DNA from: Candidatus Wolfebacteria bacterium RIFOXYD12_FULL_48_21 | GTDB taxonomy: Bacteria; Patescibacteriota; Minisyncoccia; UBA6257; UBA9933 | Direction of reading: 5' to 3' | Assembly: GCA_001793945.1 (NCBI GenBank) | Contig: MGIW01000006.1 | Span: 70,179 to 134,178, forward strand | Length of the DNA: 64,000 nucleotides | Part shown: one piece after another, positions 31,225-40,363 of the stretch | Numbering within the stretch: the stretch's first letter is position 1 | Layout of the letters: each line of letters begins with the position of its first letter | Translations under genes and position numbers: made by a program | The notes under the pieces: generated by a model | What the model was told of the DNA's origin: nothing | Databases searched by the model: none | What the model saw: the letters and a program-made list of their open reading frames with translations, nothing else

Positions 31225-32298
31225 ATGGACTACAAACAACAGCTAAATGACCTTTTGCTTTCAACGGCAAAACAAAACGCATCCGACCTGCACATCGGTG
31301 TCGGCAAATATCCCATGTTGCGCATCGATGGGTTGTTGATCCCGTTGCAAAAAGAGGGCATCGTTACACCCGAGGTCGCAACTGGTCTTGTTACCGAGTT
31401 GCTGACTCCCCAACAACGCGCGGTTGTTGAGAAAAACCGCGAAGTCGATTTTTCTTATACCTATGAAGATAAGGCGCGTTTTCGTATTAATGTATTCTAT
31501 CAGCGCGGATATATGGCTGCAGCATTGCGTTTGATCCCGGCGGAGGCTCGCACTATAGAAGATCTTGGTTTGCCGCCGATCTTGCACGATTTTACCAAAC
31601 TGTCGCAAGGATTCTTTTTGATTGTGGGCCCTGCCGGCCATGGCAAGTCGACTACGCTTGCTGCACTTGTCGACGAGATCAACCATACTCGCACGGAACA
31701 TATTATCACCATTGAAGATCCTGTCGAATATATGTTTGTGCAGGATAAGTCCATCGTTTCGCAACGCGAAGTGCTGAGCGATACGCCCGATTTTCACATG
31801 GCATTGAAGTCGCTTTTGCGTCAGGATCCGGACATTGTCATGATTGGAGAAATGCGCGACAAGGAATCCATCGCTACCGCCATGACGGCCGCGGAAACCG
31901 GACACCTTGTCTTTTCCACACTGCATACCAATTCGGCCGCACAGACTATTGATCGTATTATTGATAGCTTTCCGCCTGATCAGCAAAACCAGGTCGCTTC
32001 GCAGCTTGCCGCCACATTGGTCGGCATCGTTTCTCAGCGGTTGATCCCGCATGTCGATGGCGGCCGCGTTCCCGCGTGCGAAATCATGATCGTCAATTCC
32101 GCCATCCGCAACTTGATCCGTGAGCGCAAGGCGTACCAAATCGACTTGGTCATTGAAACATCCATGCAAGAGGGTATGGTCACGCTGAACCGATCGCTTG
32201 CTACGCTGGTTCGCAGTCGGCAGATCGCACTCGAAGAGGCGGAGTTGTACTCGTTGAATGCGAGTGAGCTGCGCATATTGATCGAAAGGGTGTCGTAG
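31225..32298 (+). CDS. pilT: Twitching motility ATPase PilT
   Basis: GPAGHGKSTTLAA and the PilT-type IITIEDPVEY. Confidence 0.9.
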   Translation: MDYKQQLNDLLLSTAKQNASDLHIGVGKYPMLRIDGLLIPLQKEGIVTPEVATGLVTELLTPQQRAVVEKNREVDFSYTYEDKARFRINVFYQRGYMAAALRLIPAEARTIEDLGLPPILHDFTKLSQGFFLIVGPAGHGKSTTLAALVDEINHTRTEHIITIEDPVEYMFVQDKSIVSQREVLSDTPDFHMALKSLLRQDPDIVMIGEMRDKESIATAMTAAETGHLVFSTLHTNSAAQTIDRIIDSFPPDQQNQVASQLAATLVGIVSQRLIPHVDGGRVPACEIMIVNSAIRNLIRERKAYQIDLVIETSMQEGMVTLNRSLATLVRSRQIALEEAELYSLNASELRILIERVS

Positions 32299-32302
32299 GG
32301 TT

Positions 32303-32378
32303 GTGTCATTCTGAACTTGTTTCAGAATCCCCCCTATTTGTACATGAGATTCCGAAACAAGTTCGGAATGACAATAAG
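32303..32378. repeat. Palindromic MITE-like element
   Basis: gtcattctgaacttgtttcagaatc ... gattccgaaacaagttcggaatgac. Confidence 0.7.
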
Positions 32379-32390
32379 ATATGTTTATCC

Positions 32391-33605
32391 ATGAAATTCA
32401 AATACCAAGCACGCAATAAGGATGGGGAACTGCAAGTCGGGTTCGTGGAATCATATTCGCAGGCGGGCGCTGCGGATGTTTTGGTTTCCCATAGTCTGTA
32501 TGTCCTTAGTCTTGAAAGTACGGATAAGGAAAATATTTTTGACAAATTTCTTGCCGCGTTCAAGCATATTTCACTAACCGATCTCATGATCTTTACGCGT
32601 CAATTTGCGACGCTCATGGAGGCAAAGGTTTCCCTTGGTGATTCCATGAAGAACCTGCAAAAGCAGACGCGTAGCCCGATGATGAAAGAAGTGATCCATG
32701 AGATCACATCCGACATCGACAGCGGTCTTGCCCTGTCACAGGCGTTTGAACGACAAAAGGATGTATTTTCGGAATTTTATGTCAGCATGATCCGGTCTGC
32801 CGAGATAACGGGGCGTTTGGAAGAAGCCGTTATTTATTTGGCCGCCTATATCGAAAAGCAAAAACTGTGGCGCTCTCGCATCATTAACGCGCTTATTTAT
32901 CCAATCATTTTAGTTGTCATGTTCTTGGGCATCGTGTTGCTTATGGTAACCATGGTCTTGCCGAACATTCGGCCGATCTTGCTTGAATCGGGCACCGCAT
33001 TGCCGTGGTATACGCAGGCTGTTTTGGTTGGGGGCGATTTCATCATCAACTGGTGGTGGGTCGTGATTCTTGCCGTCGTACCTTTGGTCATGTTCATTTT
33101 GGAATATGCCCGCAGTGAAGAGGGTAAGGTGGTTATCGACGAAGTGGTATTGCGCATGCCCGTGTTCGGAAACCTTTTTGCGAAAATGTACATTGCCCGG
33201 TTTGCGGAATCGTTGAGCATCTTGATCCAAGGAGGTATTCCTATCGCGCAAGCATTGGAGATCACTTCTCGATCGATTGGCAGTAATGTGTTCCATGAGA
33301 TATTGCACGAGGTCAGCGATCGGGTTCGCGGAGGCGAGCTGCTTTCCACTGCATTGGAGCAGTACGAATTTTACTTTCCTTCGTTGGTCAGTCAGATGAT
33401 CGCCATCGGCGAAACTACGGGGCGGCTCGATGAACTGCTCGGCCGCGTTGGTATATTCTACACGCGGGAGGTCGACGACATCATGGGTCGGCTTGGCGAG
33501 CTTATCCAGCCGCTCATCATCGCCATTATCGGTGTCTTTGTCGGATTCCTATTTGCATCCATACTCGTTCCGATATATAATTTAGTAAAGTCATTCAGTG
33601 CATAA
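32391..33605 (+). CDS. pilC: Type IV pilus inner-membrane platform protein PilC (GspF family)
   Basis: Two T2SSF repeats and three TM helices. Confidence 0.9.
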   Translation: MKFKYQARNKDGELQVGFVESYSQAGAADVLVSHSLYVLSLESTDKENIFDKFLAAFKHISLTDLMIFTRQFATLMEAKVSLGDSMKNLQKQTRSPMMKEVIHEITSDIDSGLALSQAFERQKDVFSEFYVSMIRSAEITGRLEEAVIYLAAYIEKQKLWRSRIINALIYPIILVVMFLGIVLLMVTMVLPNIRPILLESGTALPWYTQAVLVGGDFIINWWWVVILAVVPLVMFILEYARSEEGKVVIDEVVLRMPVFGNLFAKMYIARFAESLSILIQGGIPIAQALEITSRSIGSNVFHEILHEVSDRVRGGELLSTALEQYEFYFPSLVSQMIAIGETTGRLDELLGRVGIFYTREVDDIMGRLGELIQPLIIAIIGVFVGFLFASILVPIYNLVKSFSA

Positions 33606-33660
33606 TTAACCAACAACTAATAACCTGCGGCCGATAACAAATATCGGAGGATACTATTTT

Positions 33661-34155
33661 ATGAAAATACTACAATACAAAAAAGGCAGCGCCTTGATCC
33701 GTCAGGCGACGGAGAAAGGTTTTACTTTGGTCGAAATGCTTATCGTTATTGCTATCGTTGCCATTCTTGCATCGGTTGCGTTGGTAAGCGTGCGTGGCGT
33801 TCGTGAGGCGGCGGCCGACACCAAGCGCATTTCCGATTTGAGCAAAGTGCAAACATTGCTTGAGATCTATTATAATAAGCAAGGTACATATCCGAATGTA
33901 AGTACTTGGGACGCATTGGAGACCGAGCTGAAAGCAAAGAACATCACTGCTACCGATATTCCGCAGGACCCGCTTGGCGACACCCGCTCCTATGCATATG
34001 GCATTCAGCCCTCCACATTTCAACGCTATATTTTACGGGCTCAATTGTTGGATTCAGACCATAGAAATCTTACCGATGCCAACGAGATTGATACCACTGA
34101 ATACGGCGTTGATTGCAACGATACCAGCGGCTATTACTGTATAAGCTCGTTCTAA
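33661..34155 (+). CDS. Type IV pilin (prepilin)
   Basis: EKG|FTLVEMLIVIAIVAILASVALV. Confidence 0.8.
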   Translation: MKILQYKKGSALIRQATEKGFTLVEMLIVIAIVAILASVALVSVRGVREAAADTKRISDLSKVQTLLEIYYNKQGTYPNVSTWDALETELKAKNITATDIPQDPLGDTRSYAYGIQPSTFQRYILRAQLLDSDHRNLTDANEIDTTEYGVDCNDTSGYYCISSF

Positions 34156-34182
34156 CGGGTTCCCGTATGCCCATGCAAGCGC

Positions 34183-35109
34183 ATGGGCATATTTATATCT
34201 TTTGCCATTATGACATTTTTTTCCTATATACTTTTGGCGACGCTCGGGCTTATTATCGGAAGCTTTCTTAATGTTGCAACGCTGCGCTATGATCCTGATG
34301 GGGGATTTTTGAATATACGTTTATTTGGCGGTCGTTCTCATTGTCCGCGGTGTCGCGCGCAACTGGCGTGGTATGAGCTCATCCCCGTATTGAGTTATTT
34401 GTTTCTTTGGGGGCAATGCCGCCATTGCAAGCAGCACATATCGTTGCAGTATCCTATCGTAGAGCTTCTAACCGCCATTGTATTCGTTGCGATTCCTATG
34501 CGCATTGAATCGATGTCCTATATGCTATTTGCGGGCAGTGTCGGAGCGCTTTCCGTTGCGCATCTTTTGGTATCTGCGCTTTGGGTCGCAGTCTTTGTGT
34601 TGTTCATTGCATTGGCGGTCATAGATCTTCGCCACATGATCATTCCCGATTTTATTGCGATCGCCTTGGGCACTATCGGGGTCGTGCTTGCCGGTGTCAT
34701 GCAATGGTTTGGCGGGTTTTCCCCGTTGCGGGGTTCTTTTATGGGGCACTATGCCATGATTTTTGGGTTTCGCGAAAGCATTTGGGTTAACCATTTTTTT
34801 GCGGCGTTTGTTGGGCTTATATTTTTTGGGCTTATCATCGGCTTGAGTAGGGGGCGTGCGATGGGATGGGGAGACCTAAAGCTTGCGGGTGCATTGGGTC
34901 TTATCTTCGGATGGCCGGATATTGTGCTTGTGCTCATGCTCTCGTTCATTATCGGGTCCGTTGTGTCGGTTGGGCTTATGGTGCGCGGGCGCAAGACCAT
35001 GGGCGATGCGGTTCCATTTGGTCCGTTTTTGGTTATCGGCGCGGCAACCGTGTTCTTTTTCGGTTTCCGAATCATGTCGCTATATTTTGGTTCGTTCGGT
35101 GTTGTGTGA
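34183..35109 (+). CDS. pilD: Prepilin peptidase (A24 family)
   Basis: CPRCRA...CRHC zinc motif plus a multi-TM peptidase domain. Confidence 0.85.
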   Translation: MGIFISFAIMTFFSYILLATLGLIIGSFLNVATLRYDPDGGFLNIRLFGGRSHCPRCRAQLAWYELIPVLSYLFLWGQCRHCKQHISLQYPIVELLTAIVFVAIPMRIESMSYMLFAGSVGALSVAHLLVSALWVAVFVLFIALAVIDLRHMIIPDFIAIALGTIGVVLAGVMQWFGGFSPLRGSFMGHYAMIFGFRESIWVNHFFAAFVGLIFFGLIIGLSRGRAMGWGDLKLAGALGLIFGWPDIVLVLMLSFIIGSVVSVGLMVRGRKTMGDAVPFGPFLVIGAATVFFFGFRIMSLYFGSFGVV

Positions 35110-35120
35110 GTAGGGGGGCG

Positions 35121-35420
35121 CCAAGCAGAATCGCTGCAGGGGAACCCGCTCACGGATTTTGTGGGGCAAAATCCTGCGCTTCCGTTTGGGTTCCCCTGCA
35201 GCGATTTCGCTTGGCTTGAAGGGAGGGGAAGAGAAGGGAAGGGGCAGACAGAATCGCCATGCGGGAACCCGCTCACGTGTTACACACTGCTGTCCGCCGG
35301 CTGGCGGATTTAGGTTCCCATATTGTCATTCCTGTGAAAACAGGAATCTGAATTTCCGTCATCGCAAGGCGGAATGTTTCTCATATAGGCTTGCCATGCC
35401 TGCAGATCGCATATATACTT
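35121..35420. repeat. Cluster of palindromic MITE/REP-like elements, including a 28-bp-arm hairpin at 35121-35218
   Basis: gccaagcagaatcgctgcaggggaaccc ... gggttcccctgcagcgatttcgcttggc, followed by copies with the ccggctggcggat box and a gtcattcctgtgaaaacaggaat hairpin. Confidence 0.75.
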
Positions 35421-35539
35421 GAAATAGAAGGGTAGTATTGGGTTTAGTGTTAGCCACACAGTCGAGGTGGCTTGACAAAAATATTAAACCATGCTATTAA
35501 TTAAATCAGCAACTAACCAACTAATAAAGGAGAAAAACC

Positions 35540-36145
35540 ATGGAAGGATTCAACAGAAAGGCATTCGACGAAATGGTGGGCAAGGCACAAGAAGAGGCAT
35601 TAAAAGACAATGCCAAACTTGATAGCGCAAATGCGCTGATCAAAGAGATCAAGGGAGAAAAGGAAATTGCCGAGTCGAAAGAGCAATTCGAAACTTGGCA
35701 AACAATCGAATCTGGAGGGAAGTCAAAGGACGAGCTCATAAAAGAGCTTGAAGAAAAAGGAAGACTAATTGGCGCCGACGCCAACCATCTTCTTAAAAGT
35801 GAAGATTTCAAGACCTCCGAATCAAGGGAACATATTGATCTCGTAAGGCCGACCGTTAAAGATCTCGGGTTTGATAATGGTGCCACTACTGAAGAAATAT
35901 ACGCAAGAGCCGATGAATTGGGGTTGGATCTCTGTGAAGCTGAAGATGCTCCCAACTTAAGGGTCCAATATGATGGGACAGAAGGCATGGCGATCGCCAT
36001 GAAGCAGATTACCGGCTCTGGTGGCTTCCCGAGTGTGTTCTACCTGAGCAGCGATGACGACGACCTGTGGCTCGGCACGAACGGTGCGCGTCCCGGCATC
36101 AGGTGGAATGCTGACAATCGCTTTGTCTTCCGTCGGCGCAAGTAA
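35540..36145 (+). CDS. DGR target protein with a C-terminal variable region
   Basis: AAAGGAG Shine-Dalgarno. The C-terminal 45 aa is encoded by the VR. The tail reads DDDLWLGTNGARPGIRWNADNRFVFRRRK, which is CLec-fold-like. Confidence 0.8.
   Translation: MEGFNRKAFDEMVGKAQEEALKDNAKLDSANALIKEIKGEKEIAESKEQFETWQTIESGGKSKDELIKELEEKGRLIGADANHLLKSEDFKTSESREHIDLVRPTVKDLGFDNGATTEEIYARADELGLDLCEAEDAPNLRVQYDGTEGMAIAMKQITGSGGFPSVFYLSSDDDDLWLGTNGARPGIRWNADNRFVFRRRK
36008..36142 (+). repeat. DGR variable repeat (VR)
   Basis: 135-bp copy of the TR with 14 substitutions, all at TR adenines. Confidence 0.85.
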
Positions 36146-36208
36146 CTCTTGTGGACTTGTGCGCCTGTTATCTATTTGGGCACTTGGTCCCTTTGTTCCC
36201 TTGCATTT

Positions 36209-36233
36209 AAATCCCGCGCTTTGCGCGGGATTT
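36209..36233 (+). terminator. Perfect 11-bp-stem hairpin downstream of the VR and target stop
   Basis: aaatcccgcgc ttt gcgcgggattt. Confidence 0.45.
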
Positions 36234-36498
36234 GTATTATGGTACGATGATTGCGGTAGTAGGCTAATGATCCAATGCGGGCGATCAAGGTTTCCCGCGG
36301 CCGAATCCGGTATCCATGCGTCGAGAGTGCCTTCGTCCTCCGGCTGGCGGATTGAGACAGGGTGGCGCATGCAGAAACTCCATCAAAAATGAAGATACTT
36401 GGTATAAGATATTGGAGGAGTCTTGCTCCCAAATACTATACAGCCTTGAGTTTGCCAGCAAGCGATCGAGGGGCGGTGGAACGGATGATATCTTATAC

Positions 36499-36633
36499 AT
36501 TACCGACTCTGATGGCAACCCGAATGTGTTCAACCTGAACAGCAATGACGACGACCTGTGGCTCGACACGAACAATGCGCGTCCCGACAACAGGTGGAAT
36601 GCTGACAATCGCTTTGTCTTCCGTCGGCGCAAA
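36499..36633 (+). repeat. DGR template repeat (TR)
   Basis: Adenine-containing master copy, with AAC/AAT codons in the target frame. Embedded in a non-functional-looking ORF, 36316-36834. Confidence 0.85.
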
Positions 36634-36638
36634 CCTCT

Positions 36639-36953
36639 TTATTTCTCCTCCGGACTTGCGCCGGAGGAGTTTTTCTTTTCAATCTGGTGTTGCCACCCGC
36701 CGAGCATCTTGCCGATCTCATCTACGCATTTTGAAAGCGCAATGTATTTCTTACTATCAAGAACATTTATTTCCCACGCAAAGCGGAAAAAAAATTTTAG
36801 TTCGTCTATCTTGGCCCCGGCTTTTTGTAGGTGAGGCAATTTGAGTGCCTCTTTTTTCCAGCTGGCGGTAAACAGAAGTCCTGCCGTTTCGATAATAAGG
36901 CCGTCGATTTTTGTCCCCAATGTATAGCGTGAAGTTTTCGGGAATAGCTTCAC
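36639..36953 (-). CDS. avd: Avd-like accessory variability determinant (four-helix-bundle / 23S IVS protein family)
   Basis: FPKTSRYTLGTKIDGLIIETAGLLFTA and SKKYIALSKCVDEIGKMLGGW match the Avd/IVS pattern FPK.E.Y.L..QI.RAA.SI..NIAEG ... E.GKML. The ORF may extend upstream to about 37010 with a non-ATG start. Confidence 0.7.
   Translation of the reverse strand: MKLFPKTSRYTLGTKIDGLIIETAGLLFTASWKKEALKLPHLQKAGAKIDELKFFFRFAWEINVLDSKKYIALSKCVDEIGKMLGGWQHQIEKKNSSGASPEEK
36645..36679 (+). terminator. Plus-strand intrinsic terminator immediately 3' of the TR
   Basis: ctcctccgg acttgcg ccggaggag tttttctttt. Confidence 0.6.
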
Positions 36954-37013
36954 ATATTCTTGCCAGAGTTTGTACAGTGTGATAGTTTTGCTAATAATTG
37001 TTAAATTATTAGC

Positions 37014-37033
37014 GGGGGGGGGTAATTTTTTTT
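37014..37033. repeat. Homopolymeric G9 tract followed by a T8 tract in the avd-RT intergenic region
   Basis: agcgggggggggtaattttttttg, read directly. Confidence 0.8.
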
Positions 37034-37042
37034 GTTATTATT

Positions 37043-38071
37043 ATGAATGTCAAATTGAGTCATATATTTGAAGAGATAATTTCCGTCGATAATCTTTTGT
37101 TTGCATGGAAGGAATTCGAAAAGGGCAAGAAAAACAAAATCGATGTTTTAAAATTTTCGGAACGACTGATGGATAACATCTTATCATTGCATTACGATTT
37201 GGCAAGCAGAACATATGCGCATGGCGGGTATAAGGCATTTAAAATAAGCGATCCGAAGCCCCGCGATATCCATAAAGCGAGTGTGCTGGACAGATTGCTC
37301 CATCACGCCATATATAGAGTCGCATACCCCTATTTTGACAGGAAGTTCATCTGCGATTCTTATTCCTGCCGGAACGGGAAAGGAACACACAAAGCCATGA
37401 GTCGCTTTAAGCAATATCACAATGAAGTTTCCAAAAATAACACAAGAACCTGCTGGGTATTGAAATGTGACATTAGAAAGTTTTTTGCCAATATCGACCA
37501 TCAAATACTGAGGGATATTTTAGAAAAACATATAGAGGATGAGGATTTGATGTGGCTATTGGGAGAGGTTGTCGGGAGTTTTAATACCGAAGGGAAGACG
37601 GGCAAAGGGCTTCCGCTCGGGAACCTTACATCTCAGCTCTTAGTGAATATATACATGAATGAATTTGATCAGTATATGAAGCATGTATTGAAAGTAAAAT
37701 GGTATATCCGATATGCTGATGATTTTTGCATGCTATCTGGGAATAAAAAAGAATTGGAACAATTGTTGTCCCAAACAGGTGACATTCTGAAAGGAAAGCT
37801 GGAACTGGAGCTCCATCCCGATAAGGTTTCCATAAAAACATTTTCTTCCGGAGTTGATTTTCTTGGGTGGGTGCATTTCCCGGCTTATAGCGTCTTGCGA
37901 ACTTCCACCAAAAGGAGAATGATGGAAAGAATAAGAAAGCGCTTAAATGATGAAACGGTGGGTTCGTATTTGGGAATGCTGAAGCACGGGAACGGGCATT
38001 TAATACGCGAAGAAATAGTATCAATACAAAATGGCGCAAGCGGTTGGATACCCTCTGCCAATAAGGTATAA
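37043..38071 (+). CDS. DGR reverse transcriptase
   Basis: RT motifs present. PLGNLTSQ is the DGR-specific (I/L)GxxxSQ. YADDF active site. Confidence 0.9.
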   Translation: MNVKLSHIFEEIISVDNLLFAWKEFEKGKKNKIDVLKFSERLMDNILSLHYDLASRTYAHGGYKAFKISDPKPRDIHKASVLDRLLHHAIYRVAYPYFDRKFICDSYSCRNGKGTHKAMSRFKQYHNEVSKNNTRTCWVLKCDIRKFFANIDHQILRDILEKHIEDEDLMWLLGEVVGSFNTEGKTGKGLPLGNLTSQLLVNIYMNEFDQYMKHVLKVKWYIRYADDFCMLSGNKKELEQLLSQTGDILKGKLELELHPDKVSIKTFSSGVDFLGWVHFPAYSVLRTSTKRRMMERIRKRLNDETVGSYLGMLKHGNGHLIREEIVSIQNGASGWIPSANKV

Positions 38072-38078
38072 TGGTCAT

Positions 38079-38657
38079 ATGATGAACGGGAAACGCGTCG
38101 AAAAGCATGCGGCTATGAGAGGATTTACCTTGATCGAAACACTCGTTGTTATGAGCCTTGTTTTGATTTTGATCTCGATTGCGGCCATGTATAACAGAAA
38201 TGCCGGACGGCAGGTTTTGGTGGCTCGCGAACATGCAAAGGTGCTGACGACATTCGTGCGTGCGCGTTCTGCCGGACTTACCATTCCAAAGACCGACCCA
38301 AGTGTGGAACGCATTTGTGCCTATGGCGTGCATGTCGATTCTGCTGCGCGTACCATTATACTATTCAAGGATCTGGGCGAGCCGCTTCCCGGCTCCTGTG
38401 TTTCGGCGAATCATATATATGATGGCGACAGTGAGGCGCTTGAGCGAAGCGTGCTTGATGCCACGGTTAATATGGCCGCTACGAACATACAAGATGTCGT
38501 ATTCATTCCGCCTTCCGGTGAAGTGATTATTACCAACGAAGGGGGAACAGTCGTGCAATCGGCGACCGTAACGGTTGCCGGTGTTGAATCGGGGCTTTCC
38601 CGCGGCGTAAAAATAAATACATTCGGACAAATAACCGAGTTTGAGCCAATCCCATGA
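38079..38657 (+). CDS. Minor pilin / pseudopilin
   Basis: AAMRG|FTLIETLVVMSLVLILI prepilin motif. Confidence 0.7.
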   Translation: MMNGKRVEKHAAMRGFTLIETLVVMSLVLILISIAAMYNRNAGRQVLVAREHAKVLTTFVRARSAGLTIPKTDPSVERICAYGVHVDSAARTIILFKDLGEPLPGSCVSANHIYDGDSEALERSVLDATVNMAATNIQDVVFIPPSGEVIITNEGGTVVQSATVTVAGVESGLSRGVKINTFGQITEFEPIP

Positions 38658-39172
38658 AACAGCGCATATCCATACAATCGGGAGGATTTCTTCTTGTCGA
38701 AGCCATGGTATCTATGAGCGTATTGATGGTCGGCGTGCTTGGTATATTTGCGCTCATGTCCCAGTCGATCAAACTTACTCGAGTGATCAACGATCAATAT
38801 GTTTCCACCTATCTTGCGGCAGAGGGAATCGAAGTGGTAAAGAACATACTTGATTCAAATGCGCTTACCGATCCCGGCGCATGGAATGCCGGAGGGTTTG
38901 ATGCGGCTGCGTGCTACGAACTTGACTATACAACCGATGATATTGGCTCCGCGCTGTCGGCGTCGTGTTCGGGAAGCGGTGCTACGCCCTTGCTGTTCGA
39001 TGGCTCTGTTTATAGTTATGCGGGCGGAACGGCGAGCGGTTATTCGCGAACGGTGCAGATCGCTCCGATCATGGATGGCGCGCAGATCGGTGTGCGCGTG
39101 CGTTCCATTGTGCGTTGGGCCGGCGGAGAACAATCGTTTGCACTGGAGGACACATTTTATGCGTGGCATTGA
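38654..39172 (+). CDS. Minor pilin / pseudopilin
   Basis: QSGG|FLLVEAMVSMSVLMV. Confidence 0.7.
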   Translation: MKQRISIQSGGFLLVEAMVSMSVLMVGVLGIFALMSQSIKLTRVINDQYVSTYLAAEGIEVVKNILDSNALTDPGAWNAGGFDAAACYELDYTTDDIGSALSASCSGSGATPLLFDGSVYSYAGGTASGYSRTVQIAPIMDGAQIGVRVRSIVRWAGGEQSFALEDTFYAWH

Positions 39173-39183
39173 TCATGACTATG

Positions 39184-39846
39184 GCATGTAAACAAAAACA
39201 AAAAATGCAAAGAGGATTCACCTTGATCGAACTGATCGTCGCATTCGGTATTTTTGCCATTCTGATCACTATTGCCTCCGGGAGTTTTGTGCGTTCGTTG
39301 CGCATTCAGCGGGTTTCGTTGCAGCTCATGGCGGTCAACGACAATATGGCAATAACTCTGGAACAGATGATGCGCGAGATGCGGACCGGGTATAACTTTT
39401 GCACCAACACGGAAAATCTTTCTGCTGCCGATCCTTCCGTGCAGGCGCAATGCGCCGCACTGGACAACGGAGAGATTCAATTCGTGACCGCCGGCAATGT
39501 TTTGGTGCGGTATCGCTTGAAAAACGAGGCCATTCAAAAGGGTGTTGGCGTTGCCGCATGGGATCCGGCAAATCCGCCTGAAACGGCTTGCGACGAGGGT
39601 GAGTTTGATGCGACCAGCGGTGTTTGTTATCGCACTATGACCGCGGATACGATCAAGGTCTCTGATGCCAATTTTCGTGCGTTGCACAACGATGTGGAAG
39701 TTTCTCCGTTGTATCCACCGCGCATCGTGCTGAGTTTTGCTGTTACCAGCAGCGATCCTTTGGTCGAGGCGTTTGCGAGTCCCATTACCATTCAAACGAC
39801 AGTGAGTGCGCGGTGTGGGGTTAGCTCGTGCCCCTCCGACTCGTAA
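39184..39846 (+). CDS. Minor pilin (PilW/GspJ-like)
   Basis: MQRG|FTLIELIVAFGIFAILI. Start ambiguous between 39184 and 39208. Confidence 0.65.
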   Translation, partial: ACKQKQKMQRGFTLIELIVAFGIFAILITIASGSFVRSLRIQRVSLQLMAVNDNMAITLEQMMREMRTGYNFCTNTENLSAADPSVQAQCAALDNGEIQFVTAGNVLVRYRLKNEAIQKGVGVAAWDPANPPETACDEGEFDATSGVCYRTMTADTIKVSDANFRALHNDVEVSPLYPPRIVLSFAVTSSDPLVEAFASPITIQTTVSARCGVSSCPSDS

Positions 39847-39961
39847 TAGGATGGTTCACGGTTGACGGCTCATAGTTTACGGGCGGAAGCAGTTGGTGCA
39901 TTTAGTCGACTGTGAACCGTAAACTGTTAATGGTTATCGAAGAATAAACAGTCTAAATACA

Positions 39962-40363
39962 ATGCAATCGTTTATGAAGCGACCTAACATAAAAAAATAT
40001 ACCCAACGGGGGCAGGCTATGATCCTGACGGTGCTCGTGTTGTCGAGCATCGTGCTTTCGTTGTCATCCATCGGCGGGTATTTGATGCTGGTCCGCTTGC
40101 GCATCAGTTCCGATATCGGCAATACCATGCGCGCCATTTACATTGCCGATGCGGGGCTTGAGTGTGAAGCATATAACCATTTCAAAAATAGCGATGCGGC
40201 GGGATTTTGTGCTGATGCCGCCCGAAATGCTTTTCTGTCCGGTGAAGTTGATGATACGGCGCGTTTTTATTATGAAACGGTCTATGTATCTGCTGCACCT
40301 TCGTATATTCGTTCCATTGGAACTGCTCGGAATGTAAACCGGTCGTTCCGGCTTGATTTCTGA
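39962..40363 (+). CDS. PilX-like pilus-associated protein
   Basis: N-terminal hydrophobic helix. Last gene of the minor-pilin cluster. Confidence 0.4.
   Translation: MQSFMKRPNIKKYTQRGQAMILTVLVLSSIVLSLSSIGGYLMLVRLRISSDIGNTMRAIYIADAGLECEAYNHFKNSDAAGFCADAARNAFLSGEVDDTARFYYETVYVSAAPSYIRSIGTARNVNRSFRLDF

What the first reader, a model, noticed from the sequence alone, without database searches (positions are those of the whole stretch)
36499..37042. Unusual DGR architecture: Avd on the opposite strand, a plus-strand terminator right after the TR, and the TR inside a pseudo-copy of the target 3' end
In canonical DGRs (Bordetella phage BPP-1) avd, TR and RT are co-directional. Here the Avd-like ORF at 36639-36953 is on the minus strand, convergent with the TR and divergent from the RT. 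A strong hairpin followed by a T-run (36645-36679) sits immediately 3' of the TR on the plus strand and overlaps the Avd C-terminal codons. The TR is embedded in an ORF (36316-36834) that reads in the same frame as the target tail, so the TR looks like a degenerate duplicated target 3' end. This implies separate transcription units for the TR RNA and the RT.
Basis: partly seen in the sequence, partly recalled or inferred. Interest (0 to 1): 0.6.

Follow-up and report, generated by a model that had tools for sequence, protein, structure and literature searches.

The report
Typical CPR-type DGR with self-contained template RNA
This is a working-looking diversity-generating retroelement with the gene order that is normal for candidate-phyla-radiation bacteria; the "terminator" hairpin after its template is a conserved piece of the template RNA, which appears to be a separate, folded ~425-nt non-coding RNA.

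Summary
The observations hold. avd lies on the minus strand (36639 to at least 36998), a 9-bp hairpin plus T-run sits 12 nt after the TR, and an ORF runs through the TR.

The layout is not unusual. TR-(avd)-RT is "architecture B3" of Wu et al., found in 90% of CPR DGRs, and 38 of 48 RT relatives fetched here share it. CUCCC...GGGAG hairpins just after the TR are already listed for CPR DGRs as putative Avd-binding stem-loops (Handa et al., Table S3).

The ORF across the TR is not conserved. It covers a non-coding leader.

New here, as far as I could find:
- A conserved extended -10 lies about 245 nt upstream of the TR, and a conserved U-tract follows the hairpin. Together they bracket an RNA of about 425 nt (36255-36679).
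- Covariation supports five leader helices.
- One leader strand pairs with the TR 3' flank and, directly next to that, with the sequence just before the TR. This resembles the primer and stop strands of the BPP-1 spacer, but placed 5' of the TR.

Separate transcription of the TR RNA and the RT is therefore plausible but untested.

A poly-G repeat between avd and RT may switch avd on and off.

The parts
35540..36145 (+). DGR target gene (201 aa). The variable repeat (VR) is at its 3' end, 36009-36141.
   Evidence: ORF. VR/TR alignment: 133 nt, with all 13 mismatches at TR adenines.
36209..36233 (+). GC-rich inverted repeat downstream of the VR (AAATCCCGCGC-TTT-GCGCGGGATTT). It is the counterpart of the DGR target-site hairpin and possibly also the target gene's terminator.
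   Evidence: Read from the sequence. Relatives have a hairpin plus T-run at the same place. Weak terminator-like Rfam hits only.
36240..36248 (+). Extended -10 promoter element TGGTACGAT for the TR RNA.
   Evidence: TGnTAnnnT occurs at the equivalent place in 20 of 32 loci, and other loci have a TATAAT-like hexamer there. From those sequences I read a 6-7 nt spacing between the hexamer and the conserved GGTAGTAGG in 15 loci, 6 nt in 13 of them.
36255..36679 (+). Inferred DGR non-coding RNA: leader, TR, linker, stem-loop and U-tract, about 425 nt.
   Evidence: The 5' end is inferred from the promoter spacing. The 3' end is inferred from the conserved U-tract. No Rfam family matches.
36277..36298 (+). 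Leader hairpin P1.
   Evidence: Helix 2: 92% of cells paired, 7 of 8 pairs with changes on both sides.
36319..36367 (+). Leader hairpin P2: outer helix 36319-22/36364-67, inner helix 36328-38/36349-59.
   Evidence: Helices 3 and 4: 97% and 95% paired, 11 of 14 pairs with changes on both sides.
36387..36401 (+). Leader strand S1 (AAAUGAAGA, then UAC, then UUG). It pairs with the linker just after the TR (36636-36644) and with the last three TR bases (36630-36632). Proposed primer-strand analogue.
   Evidence: Own-versus-foreign duplex test gave 0 of 20,000 permutations as good. Helix 5: 84% paired, 7 of 12 pairs covary. Compensatory variants are listed. The single-sequence fold recovers it.
36402..36413 (+). 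P3 5' strand. It pairs with 36487-36498, immediately upstream of the TR. Proposed analogue of the strand that stops cDNA synthesis.
   Evidence: Helix 6: 12 bp, 96.9% paired, 9 of 12 pairs with changes on both sides. A P3-like helix is also present in the distant relative L038.
36416..36478 (+). Leader hairpins P4 (36416-36430) and P5 (36441-47/36470-78). P5 uses the G-rich tract before the TR.
   Evidence: Helices 7 and 8: 92.5% and 94.8% paired, 10 of 12 pairs covary.
36487..36498 (+). P3 3' strand. It ends one base before the TR.
36500..36632 (+). Template repeat (TR).
36636..36644 (+). Linker S1' (UCUUUAUUU; family consensus UCUUCAUUU), which pairs with leader strand S1. It also holds the avd stop codon on the other strand.
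36645..36669 (+). Conserved 9-bp stem-loop. By position it is the counterpart of the BPP-1 Avd-binding stem-loop, and it forms the stem of a terminator-like element.
   Evidence: Conserved with compensatory changes in 29 loci. Above 95% of control windows in 29 of 33 loci. Same type listed in Handa et al. Table S3.
36670..36679 (+). U-tract (TTTTTCTTTT; family consensus TTTTGTTTT).
   Evidence: By my count of the printed tails, at least 6 T in the 10 nt after the stem in about 28 of 30 relatives. It falls in all three avd reading frames (distances). It is absent after the BPP-1 stem-loop.
36639..36998 (-). avd (accessory variability determinant). The stop is at 36639-41 and homology reaches about 36998. 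The start codon is unresolved.
37014..37022 (+). Poly-G (poly-C on the avd strand) simple repeat between avd helix 1 and the RT start.
37043..38071 (+). DGR reverse transcriptase (342 aa).
   Evidence: Pfam RVT_1, E 1.2e-22. The sequence LGNLTSQ is visible in the translation. 48 relatives, mostly CPR genomes with three or four Bacteroidales.

Best explanation
The locus is a diversity-generating retroelement of the CPR-typical architecture B3: target/VR, then TR, then reversed avd, then RT.

Shown:
- TR/VR substitutions are adenine-specific.
- Avd and RT are identified.
- The layout is conserved across relatives.
- The post-TR hairpin and U-tract are conserved with compensatory changes.
- The 245-nt leader has five covarying helices.
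- One continuous leader strand pairs with the linker just 3' of the TR (S1:S1') and, directly adjacent, with the 12 nt just 5' of the TR (P3). The TR is therefore a loop closed by two neighbouring helices.

Inferred:
- The TR RNA is its own gene, running from a conserved extended -10 (transcription start about 36255) to the hairpin plus U-tract (3' end about 36675-36679).
- The hairpin does two jobs. It is the Avd-binding stem-loop of the ribonucleoprotein. With its U-tract it also terminates transcription, so the RNA polymerase does not run antisense through the convergent avd gene.
- The bridging strand that in phage BPP-1 lies 3' of the TR (spacer 50-56 as primer strand, spacer 59-70 as stop strand) lies here in the 5' leader. 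This is a permuted RNA topology.
- cDNA synthesis would start at the S1/P3 junction, near the invariant G36401 and G36402, copy the TR loop and stop at P3.
- The RT and avd must be expressed from the short divergent region between them.
For: DGR identity.

B3 layout: 38 of 48 relatives and the literature.

Hairpin:
- Best terminator-like site in the region.
- Conserved at 0-17 nt after the TR in about 30 loci.
- Beats 95% of control windows in 29 of 33 loci.
- Pairs 4-9 from the base of the stem show 4-6 pair types.
- Its position relative to the avd stop varies from -16 to +13 nt for the CUCC-type hairpins, and its distance to the avd GGW codons falls in all three frames. Protein coding therefore does not explain it.
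- The same hairpins are listed as Avd-binding stem-loops in CPR DGRs, with stems most often 9 bp.

U-tract: conserved in relatives but absent in BPP-1. This genome uses canonical hairpin plus T-run terminators elsewhere, and the DGR site has the most T-rich tail among them.

Promoter.

Structure:
- 90.8% of cells paired, against 70.5% in shuffles (0 of 500 reached it) and 41-51% when the partners are slid.
- 53 of 71 pairs have changes on both sides.
- Frequent G:U pairs point to plus-strand RNA.
- S1:S1' own-versus-foreign test: 0 of 20,000 permutations as good.
- RNAalifold and the single-sequence fold both find S1:S1' stacked on P3.
- Distant relatives keep the GAGAUACUG motif, and L038 also keeps a P3-like helix.

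The G-rich tract before the TR has a covarying partner inside the leader (P5). The alternative pairing to antisense avd got no support (p = 0.10).
Against: - There are no transcript data. Neither the transcription start nor the 3' end has been observed.
- The single-sequence fold is no more stable than shuffled sequences (z = 0.5).
- S1:S1' is AU-rich and weak in this window: 9 bp including one G:U. A different partner for the linker scores about as well by energy.
- The three pairs extending S1 into the TR (UUG:CAA) hardly vary, so covariation cannot test them.
- Handa et al. predict a pairing between sequences upstream and downstream of the TR for CPR DGRs. That pairing needs read-through past the hairpin.
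- The loop here is 7 nt, not a tetraloop as in BPP-1.
- No contact with Avd, and no priming site, can be shown by computation.
- The published version of the Handa et al. work could not be read, so some of this may already be described.
Confidence: 0.55

Rival explanations
1. BPP-1-like read-through RNA. The hairpin is only an Avd-binding stem-loop. Transcription continues antisense through avd. The G-rich tract before the TR pairs with the antisense of the avd L-G-G-W codons (CCANCCNCC, 36693-36701) to form the duplex that stops cDNA synthesis. The priming strand lies 3' of the hairpin, as in the phage element.
For: Handa et al. Table S3 predicts such upstream/downstream duplexes for many CPR DGRs. 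The complementary sequences exist here: GGGGCGGUGG at 36470-36479 and CCACCCGCC at 36693-36701. The only experimentally characterised DGR RNA needs about 140 nt 3' of the TR.
Against: - The own-versus-foreign duplex test is not significant (p = 0.10).
- The downstream partner is fixed by Avd coding, and its wobble positions vary freely.
- The G-rich tract has a covarying partner inside the leader (P5).
- A conserved U-tract directly after a GC-rich stem would oppose read-through.
- The primer-like and stop-like strands are found in the leader with covariation.
Confidence: 0.2
2. Plain intrinsic terminator. The hairpin plus T-run only ends the TR transcript and shields the convergent avd gene. 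It has no role in the ribonucleoprotein.
For: It has the canonical terminator anatomy and a conserved U-tract. It is comparable to other terminators in the window. In other CPR lineages the equivalent hairpins are flanked by A- and U-tracts, like bidirectional terminators.
Against: - The base of the stem (CUCC...GGAG) and its distance from the TR are conserved across loci whose RTs are about 56-66% identical to the window's. A terminator alone does not need that.
- A stem-loop at this same position binds all five Avd protomers in BPP-1.
- It abuts the covarying S1' strand.
Confidence: 0.15
3. The conservation reflects the avd gene on the other strand, either its C-terminal codons or a 3' stabilising or terminator structure of the avd mRNA, and not the TR RNA.
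For: The element overlaps the last roughly 13 avd codons. The A-rich complement encodes Lys/Asn-rich tails.
Against: - The avd stop falls anywhere from 16 nt before to 13 nt after the start of the CUCC-type hairpins.
- The distance from the hairpin to the avd GGW codons falls in all three frames.
- On the minus strand the hairpin is followed by AAAUAAAGAG, not a U-tract.
- The stem varies by compensatory changes, not by synonymous ones.
Confidence: 0.05
4. The TR lies in a decayed duplicate of the target gene's 3' end, possibly still translated as ORF 36316-36834.
For: The ORF exists and reads the TR in the target's frame.
Against: - Similarity to the target ends at the TR borders.
- Neither Pfam nor NCBIfam matches the ORF.
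- In 28 loci the open frame extends 0-285 nt upstream (median 66) with no conserved start.
- The upstream part shows RNA-type covariation and indels that are not multiples of three.
- The downstream part is antisense avd.
Confidence: 0.03

Closest known systems
CPR DGRs of cassette architecture B3, TR-(avd)-RT (Wu et al. 2018, NAR 46:11, PMC5758913)
   Same: Same order and orientation of target/VR, TR, reversed avd and RT. Small target protein with a C-terminal VR. CPR (Paceibacteria/Parcubacteria-like) relatives.
   Different: Nothing at the level of gene order. That survey did not describe the TR RNA's promoter, leader structure or terminator.
Bordetella phage BPP-1 DGR ribonucleoprotein (Handa et al., bioRxiv 10.1101/2023.10.23.563531; PDB 8UB7 series)
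   Same: A stem-loop lies just 3' of the TR at the position of the Avd-binding stem-loop (BPP-1 spacer 3-33; +13 to +37 here). A duplex next to the TR 3' end sits beside a second duplex with the sequence just upstream of the TR, so both TR ends meet at one junction.
   Different: - avd is co-directional and upstream in BPP-1.
- The bridging strand and the RT-binding elements lie in the 140-nt spacer 3' of the TR in BPP-1. Here the bridging strand is in a 245-nt 5' leader.
- Here a U-tract follows the stem-loop; BPP-1 has none.
- The loop is 7 nt here, not a UNCG tetraloop.
Putative Avd-binding stem-loops of CPR DGRs (Handa et al., Table S3)
   Same: Same sequence type (CUC(U)CCC...GGG(A)GAG), same distance from the TR (8-37 nt), same overlap with avd.
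   Different: That table pairs the 40 nt upstream of the TR with the 100 nt downstream (antisense avd). It does not consider the U-tract or the distal leader. The pairing found here is leader-to-linker and leader-to-pre-TR.
Retron msr-msd non-coding RNA
   Same: A self-contained non-coding RNA whose template is closed by flanking inverted repeats. It is reverse transcribed by a separately encoded RT. Priming comes from an internal nucleotide next to the closing helix (the priming is an analogy only).
   Different: Different RT clade. No Avd, no VR/TR retrohoming. The priming chemistry here is unknown.
Rho-independent (intrinsic) terminators
   Same: 9-bp stem with 7 G-C pairs, followed at once by 9 T in 10 nt.
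   Different: The stem base and the position are conserved, and the element is embedded in a coding region on the other strand. Function was not tested.

Membership tests
Diversity-generating retroelement (DGR) | TR/VR repeat pair whose differences fall on TR adenines | tested here: met
   133-nt alignment, with all 13 internal mismatches at TR A (9 A to G, 4 A to T). The same holds in about 30 relatives.
Diversity-generating retroelement (DGR) | Reverse transcriptase of the DGR type (RT domain; motif 4 (I/L)GxxxSQ, from my own knowledge of the DGR literature) | tested here: met
   Pfam RVT_1, E 1.2e-22. LGNLTSQ is in the translation. No dedicated DGR-RT profile was available. The best NCBIfam hit is the group II intron RT, below its cutoff.
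Diversity-generating retroelement (DGR) | VR at the 3' end of a protein-coding target gene | tested here: met
   The VR at 36009-36141 ends 4 nt before the stop of ORF 35540-36145.
Diversity-generating retroelement (DGR) | Accessory protein Avd (present in most DGRs, not all) | tested here: met
   PF22296 bAvd at 51.1 bits, above the cutoff of 40. A profile of homologues hits 4DWL and 8UB7 Avd first. The single-sequence AF2 model was too poor to use (pLDDT 43.6).
Diversity-generating retroelement (DGR) | GC-rich inverted repeat downstream of the VR (present in about a third of DGRs) | tested here: met
   36209-36233, 11-bp arms. Relatives have one at the same place.
Diversity-generating retroelement (DGR) | Ongoing mutagenic retrohoming | not testable with these tools
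   Needs population sequencing of the VR, or an experiment.
DGR cassette architecture B3 (Wu et al. 2018) | Core order TR-(avd)-RT with avd on the reverse strand | tested here: met
   Definition taken from PMC5758913.
Avd-binding stem-loop of the DGR RNA (Handa et al.) | Stem-loop just downstream of the TR with a stem of about 9-11 bp | tested here: met
   +13 to +37 after the TR, 9 bp. 9 bp is the commonest length in relatives.
Avd-binding stem-loop of the DGR RNA (Handa et al.) | Tetraloop cap (UNCG or GNRA) and flipped-out bases | tested here: not met
   7-nt loop here. Loops are 3-9 nt in relatives and stems are perfect. This is a frequent feature, not a strict one.
Avd-binding stem-loop of the DGR RNA (Handa et al.) | Physical contact with the Avd pentamer | not testable with these tools
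   Needs binding assays or a structure.
BPP-1-type DGR RNA topology | Primer strand and stop strand located in the spacer 3' of the TR | tested here: inconclusive
   No support for pairing between the pre-TR sequence and the post-hairpin sequence (p = 0.10). Equivalent strands with covariation are found 5' of the TR instead.
Intrinsic terminator | GC-rich stem followed directly by a U-tract | tested here: met
   The U-tract is conserved in about 28 of 30 relatives (my count of the tails).
Intrinsic terminator | Transcripts end there | not testable with these tools
   Needs Term-seq, 3' RACE or in vitro transcription.
Phase-variable (contingency) gene, considered for avd | Simple repeat of at least 7 units in the 5' coding or promoter region, with length differing between near-identical sequences | tested here: inconclusive
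   Poly-G of 6-12, or (GA)6-10, in 61 loci. A start codon lies upstream of the tract, in frame in 24 distinct loci and out of frame in 25. Three near-identical pairs differ by indels at the tract. Homopolymer assembly error is not excluded.

The most novel reading that the evidence does not exclude
In the large CPR clade of B3-type DGRs the template RNA is a self-contained gene of about 425 nt, bracketed by its own promoter and terminator, and its topology is permuted relative to the BPP-1 paradigm. The strand that pairs with the TR 3' flank (primer-strand analogue) and with the pre-TR sequence (stop-strand analogue) sits in a structured 5' leader. The RNA ends right after the Avd-binding stem-loop. 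In addition, a hypermutable poly-G or (GA)n tract at the start of avd switches Avd, and hence mutagenesis, on and off.
Probability: 0.45. Interest if true: 0.7.

Novelty: new member of a known kind. Interest (0 to 1): 0.45.

Why it matters
CPR and DPANN organisms hold a large share of natural DGR diversity, yet the only mechanistic model comes from one phage element with a different gene order. In B3 cassettes the space between the TR and the RT is filled by an antisense avd gene, so it was unclear where the RNA elements that prime and stop cDNA synthesis could lie.

The covariation found here gives a concrete, testable answer: they lie in a 5' leader. It also defines a minimal RNA (36255-36679) for reconstitution experiments.

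For annotation, the practical point is that this layout and its hairpin are normal for CPR DGRs and should not be flagged as anomalies. The ORF across the TR should not be called a gene.

Tried and rejected
- Rfam scans of 33000-40000 and 36140-37060 found no family. The only hits were weak terminator-like matches below gathering score.
- phmmer of Avd against PDB sequences found nothing. A profile of homologues was needed to reach 4DWL and 8UB7.
- The single-sequence AlphaFold model of Avd had pLDDT 43.6. It shows four helices but is unusable for fold search.
- The 566-nt TR-to-RT stretch folds no better than shuffled sequences (z = -0.52), and neither does the 425-nt RNA. Thermodynamics alone says nothing here; only covariation does.
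- The search for a BPP-1-like duplex between the pre-TR sequence and the post-hairpin sequence gave recurrent GGUGG/CCACC complementarity. There was no own-versus-foreign signal.
- An exact-pattern metagenome scan for strain variants of the window's poly-G region found 0 hits.
- The idea that the G-run is the RT's Shine-Dalgarno sequence was rejected. Its distance to the RT start varies from about 4 to about 50 nt, while its distance to avd helix 1 is fixed.
- The idea that TAAGAT-like hexamers about 60 nt before the TR are the promoter was rejected. They lie inside the structured leader, between P4 and P5.
- The ORF 36316-36834 as a gene was rejected.
Full report
**What is at the locus**

On the plus strand, a 201-aa ORF (35540-36145) ends in a variable repeat (VR, 36009-36141). 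About 360 nt downstream lies the template repeat (TR, 36500-36632). The two align over 133 nt with 13 mismatches, all at TR adenines (9 A to G, 4 A to T).

The 342-aa ORF at 37043-38071 is a reverse transcriptase (Pfam RVT_1, E 1.2e-22). Its translation contains LGNLTSQ, which I recognise from my own knowledge as the DGR-type motif.

Between the TR and the RT, on the minus strand, lies avd:
- Pfam bAvd PF22296: E 2.1e-13, 51.1 bits, above the cutoff of 40.
- NCBIfam DivGenRetAVD: E 4.7e-18, 65 bits, below that model's cutoff of 80.
- A profile of 31 homologues ranks BPP-1 Avd first among PDB chains (4DWL, then 8UB7), though only weakly (E 0.05 and 0.3).

This is a complete DGR.

**The observations are correct**

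The hairpin CTCCTCCGG-ACTTGCG-CCGGAGGAG (36645-36669), followed by TTTTTCTTTT, is the best terminator-like site in 35000-38500. Only 1% of control windows in the surrounding 8 kb reach its score. It starts 12 nt after the TR and lies inside the last avd codons; the avd stop is at 36639-41. ORF 36316-36834 exists and reads the TR in the target's frame.

One correction concerns the avd start. The GTG at 36953 truncates the protein. The profiles begin matching at their position 19-20, and relatives align to the 15 codons upstream (IISKTITLYKLWQEY). The frame is open to 37034 but holds no ATG, GTG or TTG.

**The architecture is not unusual**

Wu et al. (PMC5758913) define architecture B3 as TR-(avd)-RT with avd reversed. 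[quoted passage not shown]

An RT-based scan of one genome per species returned 48 loci, almost all from CPR genomes. In 38 of them an avd homologue lies on the minus strand just upstream of the RT. In about 30, a TR with adenine-only differences to a VR sits on the plus strand with its 3' end against the avd 3' end; TR and VR starts are about 360-570 nt apart.

**The hairpin is a conserved nucleic-acid element**

In 29 relatives a hairpin lies 0-17 nt after the TR. It has the form 5'-CUCC(C)...loop...(G)GGAG-3' followed by UUUUGUUUU.
- The three pairs at the base are conserved.
- Pairs 4-9 from the base show four to six pair types.
- Loops are 3-9 nt, and the commonest stem length is 9 bp.
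- The element beats 95% of control windows in 29 of 33 loci.

Protein coding does not explain this. For these CUCC-type hairpins the avd stop falls from 16 nt before to 13 nt after the hairpin start. The distance from the hairpin to the avd GGW codons falls in all three frames.

The same kind of hairpin is already in the literature. Handa et al. (bioRxiv 10.1101/2023.10.23.563531) showed by cryo-EM that BPP-1 spacer nucleotides 3-33, just 3' of the TR, form a stem-loop held by all five Avd protomers. Of 278 DGRs with Avd, they report putative Avd-binding stem-loops just downstream of the TR in 207, with stems "most commonly" 9 bp. Their Table S3 lists, for CPR genomes, CUCCCGUC...GGCGGGAG-type hairpins at +8 to +37 and notes the overlap with avd.

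**What the terminator reading adds**

The U-tract is not part of that earlier description, and BPP-1 has none after its stem-loop. By my count of the tails printed, about 28 of 30 relatives have at least 6 T in the 10 nt after the stem. This genome uses canonical hairpin plus T-run terminators elsewhere, about 13 strong sites in 64 kb, and the DGR site has the most T-rich tail among them. On the minus strand the hairpin is followed by AAAUAAAGAG, so it is directional. By sequence criteria it is a good intrinsic terminator for the TR transcript.

**A promoter for the TR RNA**

After the VR come short CTT(T/G)G repeats and then a GC-rich hairpin (36209-36233). This is followed by TGGTACGAT (36240-36248), an extended -10. 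The pattern TGnTAnnnT occurs at the equivalent place in 20 of 32 loci, and others have a TATAAT-like hexamer there. From the sequences I read a 6-7 nt gap (6 nt in 13 of 15 loci) between the hexamer and a conserved GGTAGTAGG (36255-36263). This points to a transcription start near 36255. Together with the terminator-like element, it delimits an RNA of about 425 nt.

**The leader is structured and not an ORF**

The 245 nt before the TR align across loci, with indels that are not multiples of three. RNAalifold predicts P1, P2, P3, P4 and P5. On a 22-sequence alignment (A4, with the TR body removed) the predicted structure performs as follows:

| Measure | Observed | Shuffled | Partners slid |
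|---|---|---|---|
| Cells paired | 90.8% | 70.5% (0 of 500 reach observed) | 41-51% |
| Covariation score | 0.609 | 0.227 | 0.12-0.17 |

Of 71 pairs, 53 have changes on both sides. Abundant G:U pairs point to plus-strand RNA.

The frame through the TR is open for 0-285 nt upstream (median 66) in 28 loci, with no conserved start. Similarity to the target gene stops at the TR borders. The "pseudo-copy of the target" reading is therefore rejected.

**Long-range pairing that closes the TR**

The leader sequence AAAUGAAGA (36387-36395) is complementary to the linker UCUUUAUUU (36636-36644; family consensus UCUUCAUUU), which lies between the TR and the hairpin. Relatives carry matched variants:

| Locus | Leader | Linker |
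|---|---|---|
| L017 | AACGAAGC | GCUUCGUU |
| L022 | AAAGAUGAAA | UUUCAUCUUU |
| L002, L008 | AACCA | UGGUU |
| L003 | AAACAU | AUGUUU |
| L016 | AAAUGAAGU | ACUUCAUUU |

A leader pairs better with its own linker than with foreign ones: -4.5 against -2.3 kcal/mol, and 0 of 20,000 permutations did as well.

After three unpaired bases (UAC, 36396-36398), UUG (36399-401) can pair with the last TR bases CAA (36630-32); this extension hardly varies and so is untested. The next leader base then starts P3 (36402-13), a helix with 36487-98 that ends one base before the TR. P3 is 12 bp, 96.9% paired, and 9 of its 12 pairs covary.

The TR, as defined by VR homology, is therefore exactly the loop between two adjacent helices formed by one continuous leader strand. 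The single-sequence fold of 36255-36679 recovers the same helices, though its energy is unremarkable. Distant relatives with 48% RT identity keep ...GAGAUACUG..., and L038 also keeps a strong helix with its pre-TR sequence.

**Mechanistic reading (inference)**

In BPP-1 the spacer strand 50-56 pairs with the TR 3' region and primes from A56. Two bases later, spacer 59-70 pairs with the sequence upstream of the TR to form the element that stops cDNA synthesis. Here the same two-duplex junction is built by a strand that lies 5' of the TR. If that is its function, the RNA needs nothing 3' of the Avd-binding stem-loop, and a terminator there makes sense. It would also spare the convergent avd gene from antisense transcription.

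The alternative is the pairing of the G-rich pre-TR tract with antisense avd codons that Table S3 predicts. It got no own-versus-foreign support (p = 0.10), and that tract has a covarying partner inside the leader (P5).

I put 0.55 on the combined model, 0.2 on the read-through model and 0.15 on a terminator-only role. None can be settled without transcript mapping or reconstitution.

**Verdict**

The observations are confirmed.

The locus is a new member of a known kind. The cassette type and the stem-loop are already catalogued. The self-contained, apparently permuted template RNA, and the repeat tract described below, are properties of the whole clade that I did not find described. The literature search was limited to open-access text.

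**Seen in passing**

- The short avd-RT divergent region holds a poly-G tract (37014-37022). Relatives have 6-12 G, or (GA)6-10, at a fixed distance from avd helix 1. A start codon lies upstream of the tract in all 49 distinct loci, often within 3-17 nt. It is in frame with avd in 24 loci and out of frame in 25, this window included.
- Three near-identical locus pairs differ by indels at or beside the tract: L071/L072 with G11 against G9 and 200-nt flanks identical on each side, plus L076/L078 and L004/L054.
- The cassette sits inside a type IV pilus-like gene cluster.

Noticed in passing
window 37014-37022 (and the equivalent site in L001-L099): A conserved simple repeat lies between avd and the RT. 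It is poly-G of 6-12 nt in 58 of 61 loci and (GA)6-10 in three. Its distance to avd helix 1 is fixed, but its distance to the RT start varies. In all 49 distinct loci a start codon lies upstream of the tract on the avd strand, often within 3-17 nt. It is in frame with avd in 24 loci and out of frame in 25. In this window C9 is out of frame; C10 would join ATG 37063 to avd. Three near-identical locus pairs differ by indels at the tract (L071/L072, G11 against G9). This could be phase variation of Avd, or homopolymer assembly error.
   Followed up: partly
window 36953-37034, minus strand: avd has no canonical start codon upstream of its conserved helix 1. The GTG at 36953 listed by the ORF finder would delete about 15 homologous residues. 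ATT ATT at 36998-36993 is the only nearby candidate in frame. The same is true of several relatives (L006, L012, L015, L022, L032, L033).
   Followed up: partly
window 36146-36206: [quoted passage not shown] In the 32 loci examined the motif is about 10-fold enriched in the 80 nt after the VR (2.5 against 0.23 per 80 nt), mostly at 7-8 nt spacing. They may be a protein-binding or target-recognition array. The function is unknown.
   Followed up: partly
window 31225-35109 and 38031-39846: The DGR cassette is inserted in a type IV pilus / type II secretion-like cluster. Upstream are a T2SSE ATPase, a T2SSF platform protein, a pilin with an N-methylation motif and an A24 prepilin peptidase. Directly downstream of the RT are two further N-methyl (pseudo)pilins. 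This hints that the small variable protein may act with the pilus. Whether relatives share this context was not checked.
   Followed up: partly
window 35108-35277: Downstream of the prepilin peptidase gene lies a 28-nt-arm inverted repeat (35120-35147 / 35188-35215, 93% complementary). A second, 74% identical direct copy of its left part lies at 35231-35277. It may be a repeated palindromic element or a large terminator. Rfam gives only a chance-level hit.
   Followed up: no
window 36591-36632 (TR) against 36100-36141 (VR): The last 42 nt of the TR hold nine adenines, none of which differs in the VR. This is an IMH-like invariant 3' segment. It encodes the conserved ...WNADNRFVFRRRK tail of the target.
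   Followed up: no
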